Of a stretch of 64,000 nt of DNA, positions 10,425-41,399 are shown piece after piece. Numbering within the stretch: position 1 is the stretch's first letter; each line of letters begins with the position of its first letter. This DNA is from SAR86 cluster bacterium (GTDB taxonomy: Bacteria; Pseudomonadota; Gammaproteobacteria; Magnimaribacterales; TMED112). A program made the translations under genes and the position numbers. The stretch lies in assembly GCA_003331635.1 (NCBI GenBank), contig QOPH01000002.1:210412-274411 (forward strand). Direction: 5' to 3'. The notes beneath the pieces were generated by a model. It was given only the letters and a program-made list of their open reading frames with translations, was not told the origin of the DNA and ran no database searches.

Positions 10425-10624
10425 TTATGAGCAATTGAATAAATAGTATTAAATATGATTCCTGTCCCAAGTGTTCCAAAAATTAAAATTAAATAATCTA
10501 TAAGAGTTACTGCAAACAATTTTTTCCAACTCTGCTCAGGATTTACTTTTTTAAACGCAGCTATCTTAAAAAAAGTGAAAGCAAATAGGAATACAACTGA
10601 ACCAAGAATAAAAATACTTGTCAT
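10421..10624 (-). CDS. small two-helix membrane protein (67 aa), hypothetical
   Basis: Two hydrophobic helices. The start codon overlaps the pyrophosphatase stop (TAATG), and the stop overlaps the recG stop convergently. No family recognised. Confidence 0.45.
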   Translation of the reverse strand: MTSIFILGSVVFLFAFTFFKIAAFKKVNPEQSWKKLFAVTLIDYLILIFGTLGTGIIFNTIYSIAHN

Positions 10625-12633
10625 TAAAGTAATGGAGCTATCACTAGACTAACAATAGCCATAACATTAATTAATATATTCATTGAAGGTCCTGAAGTGT
10701 CTTTAAAAGGATCACCAACAGTATCACCTACAACGGTTGCTGAATGTGTATCAGTACCCTTTCCACCGAAGTTACCCTTCTCAACAAATTTCTTAGCATT
10801 ATCCCAAGCGCCTCCAGCATTAGCCATCATGAGAGCCATTAAAACACATCCAAGTAGTGCTCCAGCTAACATACCGCCAAGATGAATTGGTCCTAAAACA
10901 AAACCTATAATTACTGGTGAAAGTATTGCAATTGCTCCAGGCAATAACATTTTATTTAAAGCAGCTTTAGTTGCTATATCTACACACTTTGCATTATCTG
11001 GTTCGGCTTTTCCCTCCAGTAAGCCTGGAATTTCTCTAAATTGTCTTCTAATTTCTTCGATCATTTCAAATGCTGCATCACCAACTGCTGTCATAGTAAT
11101 TGATGAAACCAAAAATGGAATTGAGCCTCCAATAAACATGCCCATTAAAACTTTTGGATCATCTAATGAAAGCTGTTCTACATCTGCAGCTAGCATATAA
11201 GCTGCAATAATCGCTAATGCTGCAAGAGCTGCAGCTCCAATTGCAAACCCCTTCCCTATTGCTGCTGTAGTATTTCCAAGTTCATCTAATGAATCTGTTA
11301 TTTCTCTAACTTCACTTTTCATACCGCTCATTTCTGCAATACCGCCAGCATTATCTGCAACAGGCCCATATGCATCTATTGCCATTGTTATTCCTACTGT
11401 TGACAACATTCCAACTGCTGCAATGCCTACGCCGTATAAACCCGAGAAATATGTAGACAATCCAACTATACCTGCGATTACAAATAAAGGCAGAACTACT
11501 GATTGCATCCCTACACTTAAACCAGTAATCATTACAGTTGCTGGTCCAGTTTCACCAGATTTTGCTATTTTGCCAACTGGAGAATTTTCTGTATTTCCCC
11601 CTGTGTAGTATTCAGTAATGAGTCCAATTAAAATTCCACCAACCGCTCCAGTAAGCACAGAATAGAAATATTTCATTTCTATAGGAGAGTAGTAAATACT
11701 TACACCAGCAAATACAAGGAAAATTACTGGTGACAAAAATGTTCCCCATCTTAGAGCAACTGCAGGTGATCTAGACACTTGAGTTCTTACAATACCTATA
11801 CCAATCAAAGAACAAAATAACCCAGAGGCTGCAAGCCATAAAGGTAAAAACATCAAATTTGGATCTAACATTGTTGCTGCAATTGCGATTGATGCAATCA
11901 TTGCACCGCAATAAGATTCAAAAATGTCTGAACCCATTCCAGCAATATCGCCAACATTATCGCCAACATTATCTGCGATAACACCTGGATTTCTTGGATC
12001 ATCTTCAGGTATTCCAGCTTCAATTTTTCCTACTAGGTCAGCACCAACATCTGCACTTTTTGTGAAAATTCCTCCACCCACTCTTGAAAATAATGCTACT
12101 GCTGAAGCACCAACACCAAAACCTTCTAGGGCTTTTGCAATTTTATCAAGATCATCCATTACTCCGGAGAAGTAGAAAAACAATCCACCTAAGCCAACTA
12201 AACCCATCGATGCAACACATAGTCCCATGATTGAACCACCAAAAAATGATATTGATAAAGCTTGCTCTTGACCATGATTTTCTGCAGCTGTAGCTGTTCT
12301 TACATTAGCTTTTGTTGCTGAATACATTCCTATAAATCCTGCAATTGCAGATGAAAGTGCGCCAACTGCGATCGCCAAGGCTGTATACCAACCTAGTGGT
12401 GAAAGTCCACAAGCTAAAACTAAAGCTAGAACTACTGGAGCAAGGATTTTGTATTCAGTTATCATGAATACTTTAGCTCCTAAATGTATTTGATCTCCAA
12501 TTTTAACGACTGACTGTTTGCCAGCCGGAAATTTCATTATCAGTCCGTATAAAATAAATGCGAATATTAGCCCTATAAAACCTGTTGCAAATGGTCCCCA
12601 AGGGTCCATTGGTCCAATTATTAAAGTCTCCAT
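10624..12633 (-). CDS. hppA: membrane-bound pyrophosphatase (K+-dependent type by GNTTAA motif; H+ or Na+ pumping undetermined)
   Basis: 669 aa and polytopic. Motifs seen: [41 protein letters not shown], and [14 protein letters not shown]. Confidence 0.95.
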
Positions 12634-12635
12634 CG

Positions 12636-13898
12636 TTATCCCAACTTGTTAAATGTTTTTTCTTCTAATTCACTTTCAGATTTAGCTACTATACATGAGA
12701 CAGCAGCATCTCCGCAAACATTTACTGCGGTTCTAATCATGTCTAAAATTCTGTCTACAGCTAAAATTAATCCAATTGCATCTAAAGGCAATCCTACTGA
12801 CCCTAAAATAAGTGCAAGAGTCACAGTCCCAGCCGATGGTACTGCCGCAGTTCCAATTGAAGTCACCATTGCAAGCAAAATAATTTGGCCATACTGAATA
12901 AGAGAAAGGTCTACTCCGACTGTGCTCGCAATAAACATTGTAGCTAGCCCCTGCATTATTGCTGTTCCATCCATATTTATGGTAGCGCCGACGGGCACAA
13001 CAAAAGAGGCAACATCTTTTTTTACACCCAGATCATCGGATACGGTTTTCAAAGTAACAGGAATTGTTGCAGCACTTGATGATGTTGAAAAAGCGAATAA
13101 AGCTACATTTTTCATTTTTCTAAAGAAAATAATTGGATTTAAATTTGCAAAAATTTTAAGTATTAATGAATAGGTAAAAAATAAATGAAAAAATAAGACA
13201 AACATTAAAATTAAAACATATTGAGCAAGATCTCCAAAAACATTCAGTCCTTTTGCCATTACATAACTTCCAATTAAGCAAAATACTCCAAAAGGTGCAA
13301 AATTCATGATCAATAAAACGATTTTTAAAAAGACAATATTCATTTTTTCAAAAGCTTTTGAAAGCCCTGAAGTCAAATCATCTGTGAGATTTAATGCAAT
13401 ACCAAATAAAATACTTATAAAAACAATACCCAACATATTATTCTCTACAAAGGCTCCAAAAATATTACTTGGAAATATTCTTAGTACAGTTTGATAAAGA
13501 TCTGCACTTCCCTGTACAGGTTCATAAGATTCAACTTCACCCTCATAACCAGATAAATTAAATACCCAGCCGAAAAATAAGGCTAAAGAAACAGCCAATC
13601 CTGTAGTCAGCAGATATAAACCAATTGTTTTAGTTGCTATAGAACCAAGCTTCACCATGTTTGAAAGAGAGGATATACCTGAGACCAATGAGAAAAATAC
13701 TAAAGGAACTACGATTAATAAAAGAAGATTCTTAAATACTTGTCCACCGAGATTAAAAATATATTTTTCAACAGCTTGAAACACATCAACAGGTATTTGT
13801 GCTTGGAAATAGAAAAAAATGGAAGCAATTATTACCCCAAGGGTCATACCTAATAAGACATTTCTTGTTAAATTTTTTGGTGCATCTAATGTTTTCAT
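12636..13898 (-). CDS. dicarboxylate/amino acid:cation symporter (DAACS family)
   Basis: 420 aa and polytopic. Motifs seen: [24 protein letters not shown] and [17 protein letters not shown], typical of GltP/GltT-type carriers. Confidence 0.9.
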
Positions 13899-16512: not shown

Positions 16513-16912
16513 GAAAACAAATCATCATATTGTAATTTGTTCGGCAAATTATCTTAGGCTAAAAAAAATTCTAAAAAATTTTTCTAAAACTAAGATAGAG
16601 CTAAATAGAAAAGAAAAAAAAAGTAGATTCAAAGCTAAATTTTTATTAAAAAAATTGTCAAAACATACTACAGATTCAATTCTTGAGTTTTCAAACCTTG
16701 ATTCGTCTTTTCTAAACGTATTCAATATTGAAATAAATATATATCATGATGTTGAACTTGCTGAGGTAAAATCTCTTAATGGTTTTCATCCGAATAAATT
16801 TCCATTCCAAAGTGAAAATATTCCTAAATCTGAAGATGAAAAGTCTCAACAAAATAGATTTTTAACGGAAGTTCTTGATACCATCTTAACAGGAGATTTT
16901 TATGAAGAATAA
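16499..16912 (+). CDS. yqiB: DUF1249 (YqiB-like) protein
   Basis: Track ORF trimmed to the ATG at 16499. ICSANYLRLKKIL, INIYHDVELAEV and DEKSQQNRFLTEVL align by eye with E. coli YqiB LCEMNFSQLRRLL, VRLYHDAMVAEV and DEKHQINQFLADWL. It lies immediately upstream of yqiA. Confidence 0.65.
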   Translation: MQEYEKTNHHIVICSANYLRLKKILKNFSKTKIELNRKEKKSRFKAKFLLKKLSKHTTDSILEFSNLDSSFLNVFNIEINIYHDVELAEVKSLNGFHPNKFPFQSENIPKSEDEKSQQNRFLTEVLDTILTGDFYEE

Positions 16913-17477
16913 AAAACTAATTATTTATGTTCATGGCTGGAATTCGCATAAGAAAGCACGTAAAGCAGTTCTTATTGCCGATCAACTCAAATCAAATGTA
17001 GATTTTGAGGTATGTTCACTTACCCTTCATCACCATCCTAGAGAAGCAATAAACCAACTTACAGAAATTATAGAAATAGAGAGAAAAAACAGAGAGGTTT
17101 GTCTAATTGGGAGCTCACTCGGTGGTTATTTTTCTGTTTACTTAGCAGAAAAGTACAATTTGAAAGCTGCAATGATTAATCCTGCAGTTTGGGCATACAA
17201 AATTTTTAAGAATAATATGGGGAAAAATATTAATGGCAATACTGGTGTAGAGTACATCGTTGATGACGAATGGGTTAATAGTCTCAAAGAAATATTTATT
17301 GAAAAAATAACTCATGAAAATTATTTGGTTTTACTTCAAACCGGAGATGAGACCCTTAATTATGAGTTTGCAGAAAAATACTTTAGAGGTTCAAAAATAG
17401 AAATTGATGAAGGTGGTAATCATAGTTTTGAAAATTTAGAATCAAAAATTCCAAATATTCTTGATCATTTCTCATAA
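16902..17477 (+). CDS. yqiA: YqiA-type esterase (alpha/beta hydrolase)
   Basis: 191 aa with IIYVHGWNS and the nucleophile elbow GSSLGGY. The C-terminal GGNHSF supplies the catalytic His. Confidence 0.8.
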   Translation: MKNKKLIIYVHGWNSHKKARKAVLIADQLKSNVDFEVCSLTLHHHPREAINQLTEIIEIERKNREVCLIGSSLGGYFSVYLAEKYNLKAAMINPAVWAYKIFKNNMGKNINGNTGVEYIVDDEWVNSLKEIFIEKITHENYLVLLQTGDETLNYEFAEKYFRGSKIEIDEGGNHSFENLESKIPNILDHFS

Positions 17478-17596
17478 AAACTCCTAATACTGAAATTTCC
17501 TTGCTTATAAAGACAAAAAGTTTTAAATTAAAATTGCATTTAGACTTTGCACCATACTCCTTATATTTGAGGAGCCCTATAGGGTAAAAGGTTAAA

Positions 17597-17650
17597 ATCG
17601 TTCATCTTCGAAAGAAGACGGAAGTAAGCGAAAGCTGAAGGAACGCGGCG
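17597..17650 (+). promoter_or_regulatory. glutamine riboswitch aptamer (glnA RNA motif)
   Basis: CGUUC (17598-17602) pairs with GAACG (17640-17644). UCUUC-GAAA-GAAGA hairpin at 17604-17617. Conserved ACGGAAGUA at 17617-17625. AGC-GAAA-GCU hairpin at 17626-17635. GAAGGAACGCG at 17636-17646. It sits about 78 nt upstream of the GS start codon. Confidence 0.85.
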
Positions 17651-17723
17651 TTAAACCCGATCGAGTTTAACTTCATTACTCCTGCAGATAAAAATGCAAA
17701 AAGTTTTATTTTAAGGAGACTTT

Positions 17724-18704
17724 ATGAGTGATATTAAAACTTATGAATACATTTGGCTTGATGGTTTTAAACCTGAGCCTTCTATGAGGAGTAAAATTAA
17801 GGCAACAACCGAAGATTCTGCTCCTGAATGGTCCTTTGATGGATCTTCAACAGAACAAGCAGAGGGAAGCAGTTCAGACTGTTTACTTCTTCCAGTTCAA
17901 ACGTACGATAATCCAACCTTTTCTGACTTCCTAGTTATGTGCCAGGTACATGCTGCAGATCATACTGTTCATCCCTCAAACACAAGGGCAGCGGCTGAAG
18001 CAGTTGTAACTGATGATTGGTGGTTTGGTTTTGAGCAAGAATACTTTTTTACCACTAAAGATGGATCACCTCTAGGTTGGGAAGAAGGTGAGCCTAGACC
18101 GCAAGGTGATTACTATTGTGGAGTAGGTGCAGATAATGTCTCAGGTAGAGAAGTATCTGAAGCACATCTTGAAGCATGTCTAGATGCTGGTATCACCTTG
18201 ACCGGAACAAATGCGGAAGTAGCTCTTGGTCAATGGGAGTACCAATGCTTCGGAAAAGGTATCAAAGCGGCAGATGATCTTTGGGTATCGAGATACCTTC
18301 TATATAAAATCGCTGAAGAATATGGCGTAGGAGTGAATATTCATCCTAAACCAAAAAAAGGTGATTGGAATGGTTCAGGCATGCACACAAACTTTTCTAA
18401 TGAAGAAATGAGATCAAAGGGTTCGGAAGAACTTTTTTCTTCTATATGTGAAAAGCTAGGAAAAGTGCATCAGGATGGTATTGCAGCTTATGGTTCTGAT
18501 AATGATCAAAGACTAACAGGACTGCATGAAACTCAAAAAATTTCAGAGTTTTCATATGGTGTTAGTGACAGAGGAGCTAGTATACGTATACCTGTTTACA
18601 CAGTTGAACATGATTGGAATGGTTACTTGGAAGACAGAAGACCAGCTTCAAATGCCGATCCATATAAAATTCTTGCTCATATAGTAGGAACTTTAACTAA
18701 GTAA
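17724..18704 (+). CDS. glnII: glutamine synthetase, type II (eukaryote-like)
   Basis: 326 aa. Motifs seen: YIWLDG...MRSK, FGFEQEYFF, NAEVALGQWEYQ, HPKPKKGDWNGSGMHTNFS and LEDRRPASNADPY. Strong SD (AAGGAG) 6 nt upstream. Confidence 0.9.
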   Translation: MSDIKTYEYIWLDGFKPEPSMRSKIKATTEDSAPEWSFDGSSTEQAEGSSSDCLLLPVQTYDNPTFSDFLVMCQVHAADHTVHPSNTRAAAEAVVTDDWWFGFEQEYFFTTKDGSPLGWEEGEPRPQGDYYCGVGADNVSGREVSEAHLEACLDAGITLTGTNAEVALGQWEYQCFGKGIKAADDLWVSRYLLYKIAEEYGVGVNIHPKPKKGDWNGSGMHTNFSNEEMRSKGSEELFSSICEKLGKVHQDGIAAYGSDNDQRLTGLHETQKISEFSYGVSDRGASIRIPVYTVEHDWNGYLEDRRPASNADPYKILAHIVGTLTK

Positions 18705-18717
18705 ACTCTTTAGCCTT

Positions 18718-19122
18718 CTACTTAACCAGTGGAAGGCTTTCTTCTTGCCAAGAAAGAAGACCATGTTTGAGAAGATAAACTTTTTCAATACCTAACTTTT
18801 TCAACTCAACCCCCGCGCCGCCTGAATCAATGCCATTTTCAGAGACTACAATAAGTGCTTTTTCTTTTTTTAATAAATGCTCTTGCTGTTTGAACGCATC
18901 TTTTAAAATATTTAAAGATCCACTGATATGGCCAGTTTCAAAATCTTCCTTCTTTCTAATGTCCAAAAATTTTGCTTCACCACTGTTTATTAGTAAAACA
19001 GCTTCTGCTGGAGAAATTTTCTTACCCCCTTTATTACTTTCATAAAACCACCAGCTTATTAAAGTTACGATAAGTGGAACTGAAAAATACCATCTAGAAA
19101 TTAAGAAATCGAATAAATCCAT
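18718..19122 (-). CDS. membrane-anchored rhodanese-domain protein
   Basis: 134 aa with an N-terminal TM helix followed by a single rhodanese-like domain (FLDIRKKEDFETGHISGSLNI). Confidence 0.75.
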   Translation of the reverse strand: MDLFDFLISRWYFSVPLIVTLISWWFYESNKGGKKISPAEAVLLINSGEAKFLDIRKKEDFETGHISGSLNILKDAFKQQEHLLKKEKALIVVSENGIDSGGAGVELKKLGIEKVYLLKHGLLSWQEESLPLVK

Positions 19123-20968: not shown

Positions 20969-22078
20969 TTAAGAATTTTCGGCAAGTCTTAATGATGTTG
21001 AAGATATGTCGTCTCTGAATATCTGCTCATCAAATCCTGTAAAACGTTCTTTTATAAAGTCAGGTACATCAATATCAGCTAAAGTAATGAACTTTTCATT
21101 TAGTTTCCTACCAAAAACTAAGAACTTATTATTATTCTCATTGAATATACTAAATTCACTAAGCATATCCTTATAGCTAGGATAAAATCTCTCATCTAAC
21201 ATTCTAGTTAAAGTGTCTGCTCCAATCACAAAAGTAGACCCTTTAAACATCTTGGCTTTATCAGGAAATTTACCTGCTTTAGTTAAAACCCAGCAATCTT
21301 TGTTTGTAAATTGAGATAAGGTGTCTTTAATGTGGTGATAGCTAAGAGGTGGCTTGTCTGCATTCTGAATACAAATTTCAAAATAAGCTTTATCGCCAGT
21401 TTTTTTCTCAGCTAATTCTTGCATTTTTCTATGGCCTTCATGAATAGGATTAAATGTTCCAGGAAATATTAAATTTGGCATTTGATCATTTGAAGAAACA
21501 AATAAAGAATCATCGCTCATAAGGTCGATCCATTCCTTTTTGCCCTCAACTTTTTCAGCTTTAAACTCCTCTGAAATTTTTGGATATGAGTATTCAAGTG
21601 CAGAAGACTCGGCGAGTAGTGCTATGACAAATTCAGTTACAAGTGCTTCCTCTTCCTCTCTTGTCCTTTCACCTTTTTTCAAAACACACGAAATACTTTT
21701 TGAATATGTTTCAGTCTGTAAGGCAATATGGAATCTGTGCTCTCCTCTTTTCTCATAAGTTGTTGATAATGTTGCTGTAATTGCCACCCCAAAAAGTTTA
21801 CTAACATCAGAATCAGGATCTATTTTTTTAGCGGCACTATAAGCTCTTGCTGCCATACGCAAGGTTGTATCTTTAGAGCAGTAAAAATCTGGTTTTCTAA
21901 GAAGATAAAAATCCAATGATTCTTTAGCATAAGGAATATATGCTTCAAGAACAGAATTGCTAGCACCAGGAACTTTAAGCAAAGTCCCAACTGCATTGCT
22001 CCCACCTCCACTAGAAACAATTACAAATTTAAAATCTGTCTTATGCAGTTCTTGAATTATTTTTAAATTATCTTTCAT
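20969..22078 (-). CDS. fusion protein: CinA C-terminal/PncC-like domain + HxGH nucleotidyltransferase (NMNAT/NadD-like) domain
   Basis: 369 aa. The N-terminal half has VSSGGGSNAVGTLLKVPGASNSVLEAYIPY, resembling the PncC ESCTGG...VPGSS region. The C-terminal half has the GTFNPIHEGHRKM HIGH-type motif and a downstream IGADT-type region. Confidence 0.7.
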   Translation of the reverse strand: MKDNLKIIQELHKTDFKFVIVSSGGGSNAVGTLLKVPGASNSVLEAYIPYAKESLDFYLLRKPDFYCSKDTTLRMAARAYSAAKKIDPDSDVSKLFGVAITATLSTTYEKRGEHRFHIALQTETYSKSISCVLKKGERTREEEEALVTEFVIALLAESSALEYSYPKISEEFKAEKVEGKKEWIDLMSDDSLFVSSNDQMPNLIFPGTFNPIHEGHRKMQELAEKKTGDKAYFEICIQNADKPPLSYHHIKDTLSQFTNKDCWVLTKAGKFPDKAKMFKGSTFVIGADTLTRMLDERFYPSYKDMLSEFSIFNENNNKFLVFGRKLNEKFITLADIDVPDFIKERFTGFDEQIFRDDISSTSLRLAENS

Positions 22079-22151: not shown

Positions 22152-22227
22152 GCCCAGATAGCTCAGTTGGTAGAGCAAAGGACTGAAAATCCTTGTGTCG
22201 GTAGTTCGATTCTACCTCTGGGCACCA
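22152..22227 (+). tRNA. tRNA-Phe (anticodon GAA)
   Basis: GCCCAGATAGCTCAGTTGGTAGAGCAAAGGACTGAAAATCCTTGTGTCGGTAGTTCGATTCTACCTCTGGGCACCA. It folds as a cloverleaf with a 7-bp acceptor stem, anticodon loop CTGAAAA, a GTTCGATTC T-loop and an encoded CCA. Confidence 0.95.
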
Positions 22228-38668: not shown

Positions 38669-39168
38669 TTATTTCAATTCTCGTTGCTATGAATGAAGAT
38701 CTCCTTATAGGGGTAAATAATGATTTGCCATGGAAATTACAAGATGATCTGGAACACTTTAAAAATTATTCGCTTAATAAACCAATAATTATGGGTAGAA
38801 AGACATTTGAATCAATCGGAAGGCCATTGCCAAATAGAAAAAATATTGTTGTTTCTTCATCAATGATAAAACAAGACGGTATTAAGGTTTTCAACAATCT
38901 AAATGACGCTATAGCTTTTTCTAAAAAATATAACGAAGAAAATAATATTGATGAGATTATTTTAATTGGGGGTGCCAAAGTCTTTGCTGAAGGCCTTAAG
39001 GAAACTACAAAACTTGTCATCAGTTGGGTAGATGCTAGCAGCATTAAAGGAGATGTTTACTTTCCTGAATTTAATATACACGAATGGAAGGAAGTTAATT
39101 CAAAAAAATTTTTTAAATCAGAAAAAAATCAGTATGATTTTGAAATTAAAGAATATTTAAGAAAGTGA
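38665..39168 (+). CDS. folA: dihydrofolate reductase
   Basis: 167 aa with [32 protein letters not shown] and LIGGAKVF. Confidence 0.9.
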
Positions 39169-40731
39169 TTCTTTTCTTAATTCTAGATTTCTAACTCTTT
39201 CTTGTTCCGCATCAGTATAACGCAGCCAAGCCTTAGCAGATTTCTTTACACTTTCTTTGTCACTTTCTCTTATTTGCTTAAATATCTCTCTTGCCTCATC
39301 AAATCTTTGTAGTTCAAAATATGCTTGACCCAAAGTAAGCTGTGCAAAATCTACGTTTTTAAGATTCCCTTTTTTAATTCCTTTATTAATTGCCTCAACA
39401 GCTTTATCAATTCTATTCTGTTGATAATGTAGGTTTCCAATAGCTATAAAAGCTTCACCATCATCGGTAATTTTTGCTAAATTTTCATAAACTTCAATAG
39501 CAGCATCTCGCTCTTTTGCTGCTCTTAGTGCTTGAGCTAAAATAGTTAAATTTCTTTTATCCTCCTCTAAAAAAGGCTTATCTTCAGGATCGTTTGCCAT
39601 ATCAGTTCCAGGTCTTACAAAGCCAGGTCCATAAACATCTAAACAGACCACCTCTTCGATAAAATTGCCCCTTCTATCTTTCTTAAATTCACCATTTTCA
39701 TCTAACACCTTTCCAATAGCACAATCCTGTTCAACTACTACAGTCCCCTCAACTGATGTTAGGCCAGTTAAAATTACTTCTGCTCCCCAATATGGATTGT
39801 CGGAGCCAATTAACATTTGAGCTAATGATTGAAATTCACCTGGTTTGTTAAGAAGCTGCTTAGTATATGCAGTTTTAAGCAAATAAATGTAATCCTCTAC
39901 TCTATCTAAGTCATTATATAAACCTGCTAAGTTGATGAAATATTTCTTCTTAGGATACAGCTCTAGTGCTTCCTCATAAAAAGGCACCTGCTCATATCGA
40001 AGACCAAGATCGGTATGTGTGGCAAACAATATATTGAACCAATTTTCTCTAAATGTAATGCCAGTTTCATCAGCTAGACGTTTAGCCTCCATGATTACGT
40101 TAAATGATTTTTGAGTATCCCCTTTTATGTAATATGCTTGAGATAAGAATACATAAGCTTGAGGAGTTGGCTCAGGAGTTGTTTTAAACCATATTTTTAA
40201 ATATCTAATTCCACCATCAACGTCTTCTTCAGATAAGGCTAACTGCGCTAAAGTATAATAAGCTGCAAGTTTAATTTGTGGAGTTGCATCTTCCTCTTTA
40301 ACTAATTTTAAATAGTTACTTCTTGCAGCTGACATATTATCGTTATAAGCAAGATTTAGATAAGCTTGATAATACCAAACCATAGATCTGTCATAACTTT
40401 TCATATCAGCTAAACCTTTCTTTAAAACGTCAACTTCTTGTTGTGCAATTTTTACAAATTTCGCAATATCTTTATCGAGTGCTTTTGCTTGCTCTTCTTT
40501 TTTCTCTTTTCGTAAAATTGTTTGAGCTTCCTCGTATTGTCCAGCTAAATCTAAATTTTCAACTACTTTTGTAACCCTTCTTGCAACAGACGTTGCTAGA
40601 ACTTTTGATCTTCTAACTTGCATCTTTCTTTTTTCTTTCTCACTTGCCAGTTCTGGTAGACCATCAACTTCATCAGCATAAAAATCAAAAGAAAATGCGA
40701 AAATAATTAATAAAAGTAACCTGCTAAACAT
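39157..40731 (-). CDS. periplasmic TPR-repeat protein of TonB2-type cluster (TtpD-like)
   Basis: 524 aa with a signal peptide and multiple TPR-like repeats. It is the last gene of the cluster, and its start overlaps the tonB stop by 1 nt. Confidence 0.7.
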   Translation of the reverse strand: MFSRLLLLIIFAFSFDFYADEVDGLPELASEKEKRKMQVRRSKVLATSVARRVTKVVENLDLAGQYEEAQTILRKEKKEEQAKALDKDIAKFVKIAQQEVDVLKKGLADMKSYDRSMVWYYQAYLNLAYNDNMSAARSNYLKLVKEEDATPQIKLAAYYTLAQLALSEEDVDGGIRYLKIWFKTTPEPTPQAYVFLSQAYYIKGDTQKSFNVIMEAKRLADETGITFRENWFNILFATHTDLGLRYEQVPFYEEALELYPKKKYFINLAGLYNDLDRVEDYIYLLKTAYTKQLLNKPGEFQSLAQMLIGSDNPYWGAEVILTGLTSVEGTVVVEQDCAIGKVLDENGEFKKDRRGNFIEEVVCLDVYGPGFVRPGTDMANDPEDKPFLEEDKRNLTILAQALRAAKERDAAIEVYENLAKITDDGEAFIAIGNLHYQQNRIDKAVEAINKGIKKGNLKNVDFAQLTLGQAYFELQRFDEAREIFKQIRESDKESVKKSAKAWLRYTDAEQERVRNLELRKESLS

Positions 40732-41399
40732 TAAGCTTCATCCTCCAATTCAAAAGTAAATTTATGAGGGACATCATCGACTGCAACAGCTCTGCCATCC
40801 CTCACTGTTGGTTTATATTTTAACTTACTTGCTGCTCTCATGGCAGCACTATTGAACATTGAACATTCTCTAAAATCACCATCACGATTGTTTGCAGATC
40901 GACATTTGCCCTCCATTATATATGGGTTTTCTATAGTGCCTGATTCTGTAATTGTGAAAGCTAAAATAACATATCCTTCTGTTCCTCTTTCTTGTGCTCT
41001 TCTAGGATAAACAGGCTGAACCTTAAAAAGAGGAATATATTCACCGTCTCTAAACAGTGTCCCTGAACCTGAATTAAAATTGATTTGAGGTTTAGTTGAG
41101 ACAGCAGAAATTGCTAGTGGCTCAACATCCATTTGAGGAGGAGCTATATCAGGCGGTGCAACTTCTGGATCCTCTGGTGGCTCCATTAATTCTTCAAGCA
41201 AAGTATCTATTTCTCTATCAGGCATAATTACATCTGTAATTTTCCTACCTTTAACAATATCCCCAGCGTCGCCGGTGTAAATAAGTGCAACCATAAAAAG
41301 AAATAAGAAGAATCCAATAAATGGAGCGCCCGCAATGAAAAGGTGTTTTTTTGTTAGATAGATTCCGTATTTTTCTAATTCTGCAACTAGACTAGTCAT
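40731..41399 (-). CDS. tonB: energy transducer TonB
   Basis: 222 aa with an N-terminal TM anchor and the Pro/Glu-rich spacer EPPEDPEVAPPDIAPPQ. The TonB C-terminal domain is YPRRAQERGTEGYVILAFTITESG...LKYKP. Confidence 0.85.
   Translation of the reverse strand: MTSLVAELEKYGIYLTKKHLFIAGAPFIGFFLFLFMVALIYTGDAGDIVKGRKITDVIMPDREIDTLLEELMEPPEDPEVAPPDIAPPQMDVEPLAISAVSTKPQINFNSGSGTLFRDGEYIPLFKVQPVYPRRAQERGTEGYVILAFTITESGTIENPYIMEGKCRSANNRDGDFRECSMFNSAAMRAASKLKYKPTVRDGRAVAVDDVPHKFTFELEDEA

What the first reader, a model, noticed from the sequence alone, without database searches (positions are those of the whole stretch)
17597..17723. Glutamine riboswitch (glnA RNA motif) in the leader of a type II glutamine synthetase gene
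Seen in the sequence:
- P1 is CGUUC (17598-17602) paired with GAACG (17640-17644).
- There are two GAAA-capped hairpins, UCUUC/GAAGA at 17604-17617 and AGC/GCU at 17626-17635.
- The conserved joining strands are ACGGAAGUA and GAAGGAACGCG.
- A single aptamer copy is present. I found no second copy in 17478-17596.
- Downstream is a 7-bp hairpin, GUUAAAC (17649-17655) with GUUUAAC (17664-17670).
- CUCCU (17678-17682) could pair with the SD AGGAG (17714-17718).

Established knowledge: the glnA motif binds L-glutamine (Ames and Breaker 2011). It was described from cyanobacteria and marine metagenomes. The experimentally dissected cases control the GS-inactivating factor gene gifB in cyanobacteria.

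Inference: here the aptamer directly precedes a GSII structural gene in what looks like a heterotrophic gammaproteobacterial genome. That implies direct product feedback on GS synthesis with an undefined expression platform, which may be SD sequestration. No PII, NtrBC or amt genes are nearby.
Basis: partly seen in the sequence, partly recalled or inferred. Interest (0 to 1): 0.6.

Follow-up and report, generated by a model that had tools for sequence, protein, structure and literature searches.

The report
Glutamine riboswitch before SAR86 glutamine synthetase
This is a genuine glutamine-sensing RNA switch in the leader of the glutamine synthetase gene of a SAR86 marine bacterium, a known kind of element that here occupies the place where sister lineages have a sigma-54 promoter.

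Summary
Rfam's glutamine riboswitch model (RF01739) matches window 17597-17649 (+) over its full length at 69.6 bits (threshold 35, E 2e-13). The gene 75 nt downstream (17724-18704) is a type II glutamine synthetase. The genome is a SAR86 gammaproteobacterium. The aptamer is conserved in about 19 of 80 species-level glnII loci, single or tandem, with compensatory changes in P2 and P3.

The kind is known. glnA-RNA aptamers upstream of GS genes were reported from marine metagenomes in 2010 and 2018, with organism and regulatory sign unknown. RF01739 in SAR86 was mentioned in passing in 2025.

Three things are new here:
- A conserved platform: hairpin H1, an invariant CUUC, and an alternative anti-P1 helix.
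- Reuse of the same cassette in front of a TonB-dependent receptor operon.
- A clean alternation at both genes, where orthologues without the riboswitch carry canonical sigma-54 promoters.

That context argues for repression by glutamine. No structural analysis showed how the switch reaches the ribosome-binding site, so sign and output step remain inferred.

Verdict: real, a new member of a known kind, moderate interest.

The parts
17539..17567 (+). Candidate sigma-70-type promoter (TTTAGA, 17 nt, TATATT). The position of the transcription start is unverified.
   Evidence: Consensus scan only, and the region holds fewer such sites than shuffles. An alternative -10 (TAGACT 17541-46), placed just before the conserved GCACCAUACUCC block, is suggested by comparing leaders. 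Neither was tested.
17557..17584 (+). Two small 5' hairpins upstream of the aptamer: CUCCUUA/UGAGGAG (17557-74) and CCC/GGG (17575-84).
   Evidence: MFE -12.0 kcal/mol, z -2.8. The stems change compensatorily between leaders: CUCC/GGAG, CUCC/GGGG, UUCC/GGAA, and CCC/GGG, CCUU/AAGG, CUCAA/UUGAG. They are present in both glnII and TBDR leaders.
17589..17598 (+). Conserved 5' flank AGGUUAAAAU. It is the 5' half of the alternative helix C and a copy of the H1 5' strand sequence GUUAAA.
   Evidence: GUUAAAAUCG is conserved beyond the Rfam model in all SAR86 leaders. See the helix C entry.
17597..17649 (+). Glutamine-I riboswitch aptamer (glnA RNA, RF01739). P1 is 17599-603/17641-45, P2 is 17605-18, P3 is 17627-36. 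The core strands are ACGGAAGUA and GAAGGAAC.
   Evidence: 69.6 bits against GA 35, E 2e-13, full length. Covariation in P2 and P3.
17650..17671 (+). Platform hairpin H1: GUUAAAC / GUUUAAC, with loop CCGAUCGA.
   Evidence: Seen directly in the sequence. MFE -6.0 kcal/mol. Nearly invariant in 18 glnII leaders and in the TBDR leaders, with one U-A to U-G change.
17659..17673 (+). 3' strand of the alternative 'helix C' (GAUCGAGUUUAACUU). It pairs with 17589-17603 and is mutually exclusive with P1 and H1.
   Evidence: Duplex -10.6 kcal/mol, z -4.3, 0.2% of shuffles as good. It is the MFE of the 86-nt domain 17589-17674. 96.4% of cells are paired in 13 distinct leaders, with 6 pairs changed on one side only and still pairing. 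There are no double compensatory changes, so it is not proven.
17671..17674 (+). Invariant CUUC immediately 3' of and overlapping H1. Candidate anti-SD.
   Evidence: Invariant in all leaders. Extended complementarity to the SD region of 7-9 bp in L005-8, L028 and L042, but only 4 bp in the window.
17679..17683 (+). CUCCU, perfectly complementary to the SD AGGAG.
   Evidence: Seen in the sequence. (C/A/G)UCCUG is present in leaders whose CUUC is followed by A, and absent in most leaders with CUUCU. The duplex with the RBS is -7.5 kcal/mol, not significant against shuffles.
17683..17698 (+). Small conserved element CUGCAGA...UGCA (possible 4-bp hairpin H2).
   Evidence: Picked by RNAalifold and invariant, so uninformative. 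In TBDR leaders the stem is instead GUC/GAC around a CUGCA loop. Function unknown.
17714..17726 (+). Shine-Dalgarno AGGAG (17714-18) and start codon ATG (17724-26) of glnII.
   Evidence: Sequence and ORF list.
17724..18704 (+). glnII, type II glutamine synthetase, 326 aa.
   Evidence: NCBIfam NF041605 at 380.8 bits, full length but below the curated cut-off. Pfam Gln-synt_N and Gln-synt_C. PDB GSII relatives at E 1e-95 to 1e-82.
18712..18738 (+). Intrinsic-terminator-like hairpin plus T-run after glnII. The gene appears to be monocistronic.
   Evidence: Terminator scan: 11 pairs, 5 G-C.

Best explanation
Window 17597-17649 is a functional glutamine-I riboswitch aptamer in the 5' leader of the monocistronic glnII (GSII) mRNA of a SAR86 bacterium.

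The leader can adopt two mutually exclusive folds:
- With glutamine bound, P1 (17599-603/17641-45) closes and the adjacent hairpin H1 (17650-71) forms.
- Without glutamine, the 5' flank plus the P1 5' strand (17589-17603) pairs with the H1 loop and 3' strand (17659-17673). This 'helix C' destroys the aptamer.

The net effect is most probably lower GS expression when glutamine is high. The cassette would then do in cis what NtrC and sigma-54 do at the same gene in sister lineages. The last step is probably occlusion of the SD by the pyrimidine tracts just 3' of H1 (CUUC 17671-74, CUCCU 17679-83).

Status of each step:
- Shown: aptamer identity, its conservation and covariation, the gene, the host, and the riboswitch/sigma-54 alternation.
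- Supported but not proven: helix C.
- Inferred: negative sign and translational output.
For: Aptamer:
- 69.6 bits, E 2e-13.
- Compensatory changes in P2 and P3 across 18 leaders.

Context:
- GSII gene 75 nt downstream on the same strand.
- SAR86 host.

Conservation:
- Aptamer, single or tandem, plus the same platform in about 19 of 80 species-level glnII loci, placed in at least 4 separate positions of a GSII tree.

Helix C:
- -10.6 kcal/mol, z -4.3.
- It is the MFE of the 86-nt domain.
- 96% of cells paired, with one-sided changes that keep pairing.
- It explains why the 3' part of the H1 'loop' (CGAG) and the flank GUUAAAAU are conserved.
- The helix C state is predicted to be on average 3.1 kcal/mol more stable than aptamer plus H1, the right order for a ligand-tipped switch.

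Sign:
- 16 riboswitch-less glnII loci carry TGGCAY-N5-TTGCA at -51 to -63. Fourteen of these also have a GCAC-N7-GTGC site. None of 17 riboswitch loci has either.
- The same tandem-aptamer cassette precedes a TonB-dependent receptor/phosphoribosyltransferase operon.
- All four riboswitch-less orthologues of that receptor carry the sigma-54 consensus.
- By established knowledge, NtrC/sigma-54 promoters of glnA/glnII are switched on under nitrogen limitation. Klahn 2018 (PMC6212724) also judged negative regulation 'reasonable' for GS-linked aptamers.
Against: - Every experimentally tested glutamine riboswitch (Synechocystis gifB, Prochlorococcus DP type) is an ON switch (PMC6212724).
- Constrained partition-function folding of 15 leaders shows no consistent change in SD or AUG accessibility between the two states. 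Mean SD unpaired is 0.30 against 0.28, p 0.42.
- Anti-SD:SD complementarity beats shuffles in only 3 of 13 leaders.
- The aptamer's GAAGGA 'SD mimic' does not pair with the downstream leader better than chance.
- UCCU is absent from 7 of the 18 glnII leaders.
- Helix C has no double compensatory change, because both strands are almost invariant.
- Both states leave the same downstream sequence single-stranded, so the path from switch to RBS is not explained.
Confidence: 0.5

Rival explanations
1. ON switch, as in cyanobacteria. Without glutamine the freed P1 5' strand AUCGUUCAU (17597-17605) pairs with the start region AUGAGUGAU (17724-17732) and blocks initiation. Glutamine closes P1 and releases the start codon.
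For: - The pairing is 9 of 9, with two G-U pairs. RNAalifold chooses this long-range helix as the consensus.
- Riboswitch-bearing glnII genes have codon 2 as AGU, AGC, GGU, AAU or ACU, which keeps pairing with GUU in all but the one leader with ACU (L042). 59 of 61 riboswitch-less orthologues use UCA/GCA/ACA-type codons that do not pair. Mean duplex energy is -6.5 against -3.4 kcal/mol.
- The RBS-complementarity profile peaks on the P1/P2 5' strands.
- All tested glutamine riboswitches are ON (PMC6212724).
Against: - More GS at high glutamine is positive feedback and makes no physiological sense. It is also the opposite of the sigma-54/NtrC logic at the orthologous loci.
- The same cassette in TBDR leaders has only the trivial 5-bp UUCAU:AUGAA match.
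- The model gives the strongly conserved H1/CUUC platform no role.
- In helix C the P1 5' strand is already occupied.
- With a longer 5' flank the predicted effect on the AUG disappears.
- The codon pattern may simply be linked to the cassette through recombination.
Confidence: 0.2
2. Negative switch whose output is not SD occlusion. The two folds would differ in exposure of an RNase E site or a Rho entry site. For example, the AU-rich flank UAAAAGGUUAAAAU is single-stranded only in the glutamine-bound fold, so glutamine would lower mRNA level rather than initiation.
For: - The only segments whose pairing differs between the two folds are 17585-17598, which is free when bound, and 17637-17658, which is free when unbound.
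- No consistent RBS effect was found.
- The region between H1 and the SD is poorly conserved, as expected if the decision is taken upstream.
- By established knowledge there are precedents in the E. coli lysC (RNase E) and ribB/mgtA (Rho) riboswitches.
Against: - No C-rich, G-poor rut-like tract is differentially exposed.
- There is no test of RNase E sites.
- H1 is not a terminator. Its stem is 7 bp with 2 G-C pairs, it is followed by UUCAUUAC, and the terminator scan finds nothing there.
- The model is purely inferential.
Confidence: 0.15
3. The aptamer is a relic or neutral passenger with no present regulatory role, or a chance resemblance.
For: - Patchy distribution within SAR86.
- No demonstrated output mechanism.
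Against: - CM E-value 2e-13.
- Core nucleotides are invariant, and P2 and P3 covary, across species whose GSII is only 79-90% identical.
- The platform is conserved as strongly as the aptamer, and is reused at a second gene.
Confidence: 0.03

Closest known systems
Glutamine-I riboswitch (glnA RNA motif, Rfam RF01739), type case Synechocystis gifB 5' UTR (Klahn et al. 2018, PMC6212724)
   Same: - Same aptamer: P1 CGUUC/GAACG, P2 and P3 hairpins, ACGGAAGUA/GAAGGAAC core, full-length model match.
- Sits in a 5' leader of a gene of GS regulation.
- Tandem copies occur in relatives, as is known for the class (PMC9481103).
   Different: - The host is a heterotrophic SAR86 gammaproteobacterium, not a cyanobacterium.
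- The target is the GS structural gene (GSII), not the inhibitor IF17.
- The expected sign is negative, whereas gifB is ON.
- The expression platform (H1, CUUC, helix C) differs from the gifB-type and phage-type platforms seen.
glnA-RNA aptamers upstream of glutamine synthetase genes in marine metagenomes (Weinberg et al. 2010, PMC2864571; re-confirmed by Klahn 2018)
   Same: This is very probably the same population of elements: a type-1 aptamer directly 5' of a GS gene in marine surface-water DNA.
   Different: Those reports gave no organism, GS type, platform or sign. Here the organism (SAR86), the GS type (GlnII), a conserved platform and a second regulated operon are identified.
NtrC/sigma-54 control of glnII and nitrogen-scavenging genes in Proteobacteria
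   Same: It controls the same orthologous genes at the same chromosomal positions in sister SAR86 lineages. Both read out nitrogen status, ultimately glutamine.
   Different: That system is a protein two-component system plus an alternative sigma factor acting on transcription initiation. This one is a cis-acting RNA that senses glutamine directly. Whether riboswitch-bearing genomes have lost ntrBC or rpoN was not testable.
Glutamine riboswitches of marine T4-like phages (Melnitz, pelagimyophages; Buchholz et al. 2022, PMC9004378)
   Same: Same aptamer class in streamlined marine systems. At least 120 IMG/VR contigs match the core pattern exactly.
   Different: The phage copies sit directly behind TATAAATA late-type promoters. 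They use a short platform in which CACC after P1 pairs with GGUG after the SD, with clear covariation. Their target genes are small unknown proteins and DUF4278-like proteins.
Glutamine-II riboswitch (Downstream-peptide motif, RF01704)
   Same: Same ligand and a related binding core.
   Different: It has a pseudoknot architecture restricted to marine picocyanobacteria. The window scores only 14.8 bits against GA 33.

Membership tests
Glutamine-I riboswitch (RF01739) | Covariance-model score at or above the curated gathering threshold, over the full model | tested here: met
   69.6 bits against 35, model positions 1-53 of 53, E 2.1e-13.
Glutamine-I riboswitch (RF01739) | Three-stem junction: P1 CGUUC/GAACG, P2 hairpin, 3-bp P3 hairpin | tested here: met
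   All pairs are present. It is the MFE of the isolated 53-mer. P2 has 4 of 5 pairs and P3 has 1 of 3 pairs with double compensatory changes. P1 is invariant.
Glutamine-I riboswitch (RF01739) | Conserved joining strands forming the E-loop and binding core (ACGGAAGUA ... GAAGGAAC) | tested here: met
   They match the model consensus exactly and are invariant in 18 homologous leaders. The three-dimensional fold itself was not tested.
Glutamine-I riboswitch (RF01739) | Location in the 5' leader, same strand, of a nitrogen-metabolism gene | tested here: met
   75 nt upstream of glnII on the + strand. The upstream gene, a yqiA-like esterase, ends at 17477.
Glutamine-I riboswitch (RF01739) | Selective binding of L-glutamine | not testable with these tools
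   Needs in-line probing or ITC.
Glutamine-I riboswitch (RF01739) | Glutamine-dependent change in expression of the downstream gene | not testable with these tools
   Only modelling was possible. An alternative fold (helix C) is supported. No consistent RBS effect was found.
Type II glutamine synthetase (GlnII) | GS beta-grasp and catalytic domains, about 330 aa, closest to decameric GSII enzymes | tested here: met
   Pfam PF03951 and PF00120. NCBIfam GlnII alignment 5-328 of 333. Best PDB relatives are 4BAX, 3FKY and 2D3A, E 1e-95 to 1e-84.
Type II glutamine synthetase (GlnII) | Score above NCBIfam's equivalog cut-off | tested here: not met
   380.8 bits against 500. The protein is a divergent but full-length member. 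Catalytic activity was not tested.
Sigma-54 (RpoN) promoter, considered for the leader and for orthologous loci | TGGCAC-N5-TTGCA with fixed GG-N10-GC spacing | tested here: not met
   No match in the 300 nt upstream of the window's glnII or of any of the 17 riboswitch loci. The TGCA...TGCA elements in the leader have variable spacing. The feature is met in 16 riboswitch-less glnII loci and 4 riboswitch-less TBDR loci.
Intrinsic terminator / transcriptional attenuator, considered for H1 | G+C-rich stem followed directly by a U-run | tested here: not met
   The stem is 7 bp with 2 G-C pairs and is followed by UUCAUUACU. The terminator scan reports nothing in the leader.

The most novel reading that the evidence does not exclude
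In some SAR86 lineages a portable glutamine-riboswitch cassette has replaced NtrC/sigma-54-dependent promoters at two or more nitrogen-regulated genes: glnII and a TonB-receptor/purine-salvage operon. The cassette comprises 5' hairpins, one or two aptamers, and the H1/CUUC platform with an anti-P1 helix. It would work as the first negative (OFF) glutamine riboswitch. A cis-RNA sensor would then be substituting for a two-component system plus an alternative sigma factor in a genome-streamlined, globally abundant bacterioplankton clade.
Probability: 0.4. Interest if true: 0.65.

Novelty: new member of a known kind. Interest (0 to 1): 0.42.

Why it matters
Klahn et al. (2018) left two questions open about GS-linked glutamine aptamers in the sea: which organisms carry them, and what glutamine does to GS expression. 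This locus answers the first. The carriers are SAR86, one of the most abundant heterotrophs of the surface ocean, and the enzyme is a GlnII-type GS.

The locus also makes the second question directly testable. It offers defined elements to mutate: helix C, H1 and CUUC/CUCCU. A second regulated operon provides an internal control.

The riboswitch/sigma-54 alternation at two genes gives a natural experiment on how streamlined genomes trade protein regulators for RNA sensors. If the switch proves negative, it would extend a riboswitch class so far known only as ON.

Tried and rejected
1. Metagenome scan with GAAGGAACG-N15-35-TTTARCTTC. The pattern was too loose.
2. Leader peptide from the conserved ATG(CA) at 17695 (MQKVLF*, with its stop overlapping the SD). 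Rejected because L004 has CTG there and the TBDR leaders have TTGCA/TTACA, so no ATG.
3. A sigma-54 promoter inside the leader (CTGCAG..ATGCA, or TTGCAT..TTGCAC upstream). Rejected because the GG is missing and the spacing varies between 5 and 8.
4. H1 as an intrinsic terminator. Rejected.
5. An alternative helix between the aptamer 3' half GAAGGAAC and GUUUAACUUC. It appears in many MFE folds but is not better than shuffles, z -1.1.
6. The aptamer's GAAGGA as an SD mimic that titrates the anti-SD. There is no excess complementarity, z 0.3 or higher.
7. Covariation between the GUAGG/GUAAG aptamer variants and the CCUAAC/CUUAAC platform in phages. None was seen.
8. Thermodynamic prediction of sign. 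Competing folds lie within about 5 kcal/mol of each other. Accessibility results changed with flank length. One search contained an indexing error and must be ignored. The corrected run shows no effect.
9. Ames & Breaker 2011 and Ren et al. 2015 are not held in the library. The supplements of the two relevant papers are not held either.
10. SAR86-type platform in viral contigs. This gave one redundant hit and two chance hits.
Full report
**Observation**

The sequence at 17597-17649 (+) reads AUCGUUCAUCUUCGAAAGAAGACGGAAGUAAGCGAAAGCUGAAGGAACGCGGC. Rfam 15 assigns it to RF01739, the glutamine riboswitch aptamer (glnA leader). The score is 69.6 bits against a gathering score of 35, E 2.1e-13, covering model positions 1-53 of 53.

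- P1 is C17599-C17603 with G17641-G17645.
- P2 is 17605-09 with 17614-18, with a GAAA loop.
- P3 is 17627-29 with 17634-36, with a GAAA loop.
- The downstream hairpin, here called H1, is G17650-C17656 with G17665-C17671.
- CUCCU is 17679-83.
- The SD AGGAG (17714-18) and the ATG (17724) are as stated.

A permissive scan of 17380-17800 (E up to 10) finds no second copy. The glutamine-II model scores only 14.8 bits. The isolated 53-mer folds into P1/P2/P3 as its MFE but is not unusually stable (z -0.46). The case therefore rests on the covariance model and on comparative data.

**Gene and organism**

The ORF at 17724-18704 (326 aa) is a type II glutamine synthetase:
- NCBIfam GlnII aligns over 5-328 of 333 at 380.8 bits, below that model's strict 500-bit cut-off.
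- Pfam finds both GS domains.
- The closest solved structures are decameric GSII enzymes: 4BAX at E 1e-95, then yeast, plant and human GS.

A terminator-like hairpin follows the gene at 18712-38. The upstream gene (16902-17477) is a YqiA-like esterase.

Within 4.5-32.7 kb of the window there is no PII, NtrB/C or Amt gene. The neighbours include RelA/SpoT, RecG, an H+-pyrophosphatase, an SDF-family symporter, UbiA, a FemAB-like protein, a rhodanese, GpmA, MutY and sulfatases.

The GSII protein is 98% identical to that of SAR86 single-cell genome AG-337-J15. The 80 best species-level loci are almost all labelled SAR86 or Gammaproteobacteria.

**Conservation and covariation**

Of the 80 loci, about 19 carry the aptamer upstream of glnII:
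- Single copy: L001, L004-8, L012-14.
- Tandem: L003, L009, L010, L028, L075-77.
- L015 and L042 also carry it, but their contigs are cut at the 5' end, so copy number is at least one.

In an alignment of 18 leaders (A1):
- P2 shows double compensatory changes at 4 of 5 pairs, and P3 at 1 of 3.
- 98.8% of cells are paired, against 32-44% when the 3' partners are slid.
- None of 500 column shuffles reaches the observed covariation.
- P1 and H1 never vary, apart from one U-A to U-G change in H1. They neither support nor contradict the structure.

On a neighbour-joining tree of the GSII proteins, the riboswitch-bearing loci fall in at least four separate places. The distribution within SAR86 is therefore patchy.

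**What stands in its place elsewhere**

At the same syntenic position (yqiA-glnII), 16 riboswitch-less loci have a canonical sigma-54 promoter, TGGCAY-N5-TTGCA, at -51 to -63. Fourteen of these 16 also have one or two GCAC-N7-GTGC sites of the NtrC type further upstream. None of the 17 riboswitch loci has either. Eleven loci, labelled Pelagibacteraceae, have a PII gene directly upstream instead.

The same alternation is seen at a second gene:
- One true hit of the otherwise wasted metagenome scan (L226) has two aptamers and the same platform in front of a 785-aa TonB-dependent receptor.
- Homologues of that receptor at 80-87% identity, including ones from two NCBI genome assemblies whose contig accessions resemble those of the SAR86 single-cell genomes (taxon not shown by the tool), all carry the tandem cassette.
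- Four orthologues at 70-77% identity lack the cassette, and every one has TGGCAY-N5-TTGCA 45-65 nt before the ATG.

The receptor is followed by a phosphoribosyltransferase gene and is divergent from a xanthine/uracil permease gene. This looks like a nucleobase-scavenging unit.

**Anatomy of the leader**

From 5' to 3':
- A conserved block, GCACCAUACUCC.
- Two small hairpins (17557-74 and 17575-84) whose stems covary between leaders.
- The conserved flank GUUAAAAU.
- The aptamer or aptamers.
- A 3-4 nt variable linker.
- H1.
- An invariant CUUC.
- A short variable spacer carrying either CUUCU... or (C/A/G)UCCUGCAG.
- A small CUGCA-centred element.
- An AU-rich variable stretch.
- The SD and the ATG.

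The platform up to CUUC is conserved as strongly as the ligand-binding core, and it is the same in front of two unrelated genes. It is therefore a module in its own right.

The best-supported alternative structure is what I call helix C. The flank plus the P1 5' strand (17589-17603, AGGUUAAAAUCGUUC) pairs with the 3' part of the H1 loop, the H1 3' strand and UU (17659-17673, GAUCGAGUUUAACUU).
- The duplex energy is -10.6 kcal/mol, z -4.3. Only 0.2% of shuffles are as good. H1 itself, and pairings with other aptamer segments, are within chance.
- Helix C is the MFE of the 86-nt domain 17589-17674.
- It is compatible with 96.4% of cells in 13 distinct leaders. Six pairs change on one side only and still pair, A-U to G-U or U-A to U-G.
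- It explains two otherwise odd conservations: the loop nucleotides CGAG of H1, and the GUUAAA repeated on both sides of the aptamer.
- It excludes both P1 and H1, giving a four-strand exchange. Bound, the pairings are a:b and a':b'. Free, a:b' forms, and the P1 3' strand AACG can also form a 4-bp mini-hairpin with the CGUU that begins H1, as seen in the sequences.
- In 15 leaders the helix C state is predicted to be on average 3.1 kcal/mol more stable than aptamer plus H1. Ligand binding could plausibly overcome a gap of that size.
- In tandem leaders helix C would enclose both aptamers. Escape from it would then need both to be occupied, which fits the known steeper response of tandem glutamine riboswitches (PMC9481103).
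- There are no double compensatory changes, because both strands are nearly invariant. Helix C is supported, not proven.

**How the switch reaches gene expression is unresolved**

I tested several ideas.
- An intrinsic terminator role for H1 is excluded. The stem is weak, there is no U-run, and the scan finds nothing.
- Anti-SD pairing. CUCCU (17679-83) matches AGGAG perfectly. In other leaders the invariant CUUC extends into 7-9 bp with the SD region (L005-8, L028, L042). Leaders seem to have either CUUCU or a separate UCCU. However, the complementarity beats shuffles in only 3 of 13 leaders.
- The aptamer's own GAAGGA as an SD mimic that would hold the anti-SD in the free state shows no excess complementarity.
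- Partition-function folding with either state enforced gives no consistent difference in SD or AUG accessibility. Mean SD unpaired is 0.30 against 0.28, p 0.42. An earlier version of that script had an indexing error and should be disregarded.
- All competing folds of the window leader lie between -30 and -36 kcal/mol. Nearest-neighbour modelling cannot decide between them.

The ON-type alternative is that AUCGUUCAU (17597-605) pairs with AUGAGUGAU (17724-32).
- It is chosen by RNAalifold.
- It is reflected in a striking codon-2 difference between riboswitch-bearing and riboswitch-less glnII genes, -6.5 against -3.4 kcal/mol.
- It is absent from the TBDR leaders.
- It leaves the conserved platform without a role.
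- It would create positive feedback on GS.

**Sign of regulation**

I judge negative regulation by glutamine to be the most likely reading, at about 0.65 summed over mechanisms. At two independent genes the cassette occupies exactly the place of a sigma-54 promoter. In Proteobacteria such a promoter is activated by NtrC under nitrogen limitation. Both targets, GS and a nucleobase-uptake receptor, are useful when glutamine is scarce.

This is an argument from context, not a demonstration. Every glutamine riboswitch tested so far is an ON switch (PMC6212724; PMC6698751).

**Comparison with what is known**

- The aptamer is an ordinary member of RF01739.
- Its association with GS genes is the origin of the name 'glnA RNA' (Weinberg 2010, PMC2864571).
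- Klahn et al. 2018 found such cases only in marine metagenomes, never in cyanobacterial genomes. They wrote that neither the effect of glutamine nor the taxonomic affiliation was known.
- A 2025 long-read metagenomics paper mentions RF01739 inside deletions in SAR86 populations, without further analysis. Single/tandem copy-number variation like that seen here could in principle produce such deletions, but I could not check this.
- A 2024 comparative genomics study of SAR86 does not mention riboswitches or Ntr regulation.

The instance is therefore a new member of a known kind. The additions made here are the host, the GS type, the platform with helix C, the second target operon and the riboswitch/sigma-54 alternation. 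I did not find these in the searchable literature.

**Limits**

The size of the regulon, and the presence or absence of rpoN and ntrBC in riboswitch-bearing lineages, remain unknown. The transcription start is not mapped. Nothing here tests ligand binding.

Noticed in passing
Most sit 5-10 nt behind a T4-late-type TATAAATA box. They are followed by a short platform in which the 4-5 nt after P1 (CACC, CACU, CAUC, CAAUC) covary with the nucleotides just after the SD (GGUG, AGUG, GAUG, GAUUG). A 2017 survey (PMC5473149) knew of only two phage examples.
   Followed up: partly
window 17666-17674; phage leaders in L081-L200; second copies near the SD in L003, L010, L012: The motif UUAACUU(C/U), placed 6-12 nt before an SD in phage and some SAR86 leaders and forming the H1 3' strand here, resembles from memory the 'epsilon' translational enhancer UUAACUUUA of the phage T7 gene 10 leader. 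It may be coincidence in AU-rich leaders.
   Followed up: no
L226 273-3255; L324-L333: A SAR86 TonB-dependent receptor is followed by a phosphoribosyltransferase gene and is divergent from a xanthine/uracil permease gene. It is controlled either by tandem glutamine aptamers or by a sigma-54 promoter, depending on lineage. In the sigma-54 lineages IMP dehydrogenase and GMP synthase genes follow (L330; IMPDH also in L332 and L333). This suggests purine or nucleobase scavenging tied to nitrogen status.
   Followed up: partly
window 17546-17584 and the equivalent in all cassette-bearing loci: The block TTGCACCAT(A/C)(C)TCC plus two covarying hairpins is conserved upstream of the aptamer at both glnII and the TBDR gene. 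It probably includes the transcript 5' end. In many leaders a -10-like box (TAGACT, TATAAC, TTTAAT) lies immediately before TTGCACC. The hairpin CUCC/GGAG mimics an anti-SD/SD pair.
   Followed up: partly
L030, L031, L036, L041, L044, L045, L047, L048, L053, L071, L072: In loci labelled Pelagibacteraceae, a GSII gene 83-84% identical to the SAR86 one lies directly downstream of a PII (glnB-like) gene. It has neither a riboswitch nor a sigma-54 consensus. The labels may reflect mis-sorted single-cell genomes or gene transfer.
   Followed up: no
L011, L016, L019, L023, L040, L069: A further glnII leader type has one GCAC-N7-GTGC site, followed in most of these loci (L011, L016, L023, L069) by a strong terminator-like hairpin (AGCCCTG..AGGGCTTTTTTT) about 45 nt before the SD. 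This could be a transcription attenuator of a different kind.
   Followed up: no
window 22152-22227 (+): This is the only tRNA gene in the window: tRNA-Phe (GAA).
   Followed up: yes
window 40782-40797 (-): TGGCAGAGCTGTTGCA is a one-mismatch sigma-54-like site about 50 nt upstream of the start of the ORF 39157-40731 (-). The window has no exact TGGCAY-N5-TTGCW match, and 10 one-mismatch matches against 4.1 expected. Whether this genome still uses sigma-54 is open.
   Followed up: no
window 12636-13898 (-) and 10624-12633 (-): A sodium:dicarboxylate (SDF, GltP-like) symporter gene lies next to a membrane H+-pyrophosphatase gene, 4 kb from glnII. The symporter is a possible glutamate/aspartate importer. 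No regulatory RNA was detected in front of it.
   Followed up: no
window 20969-22078 (-): A 369-aa ORF has only a faint nucleotidyltransferase signature (HxGH region, TIGR00125 at E 7e-5) and no family assignment.
   Followed up: no
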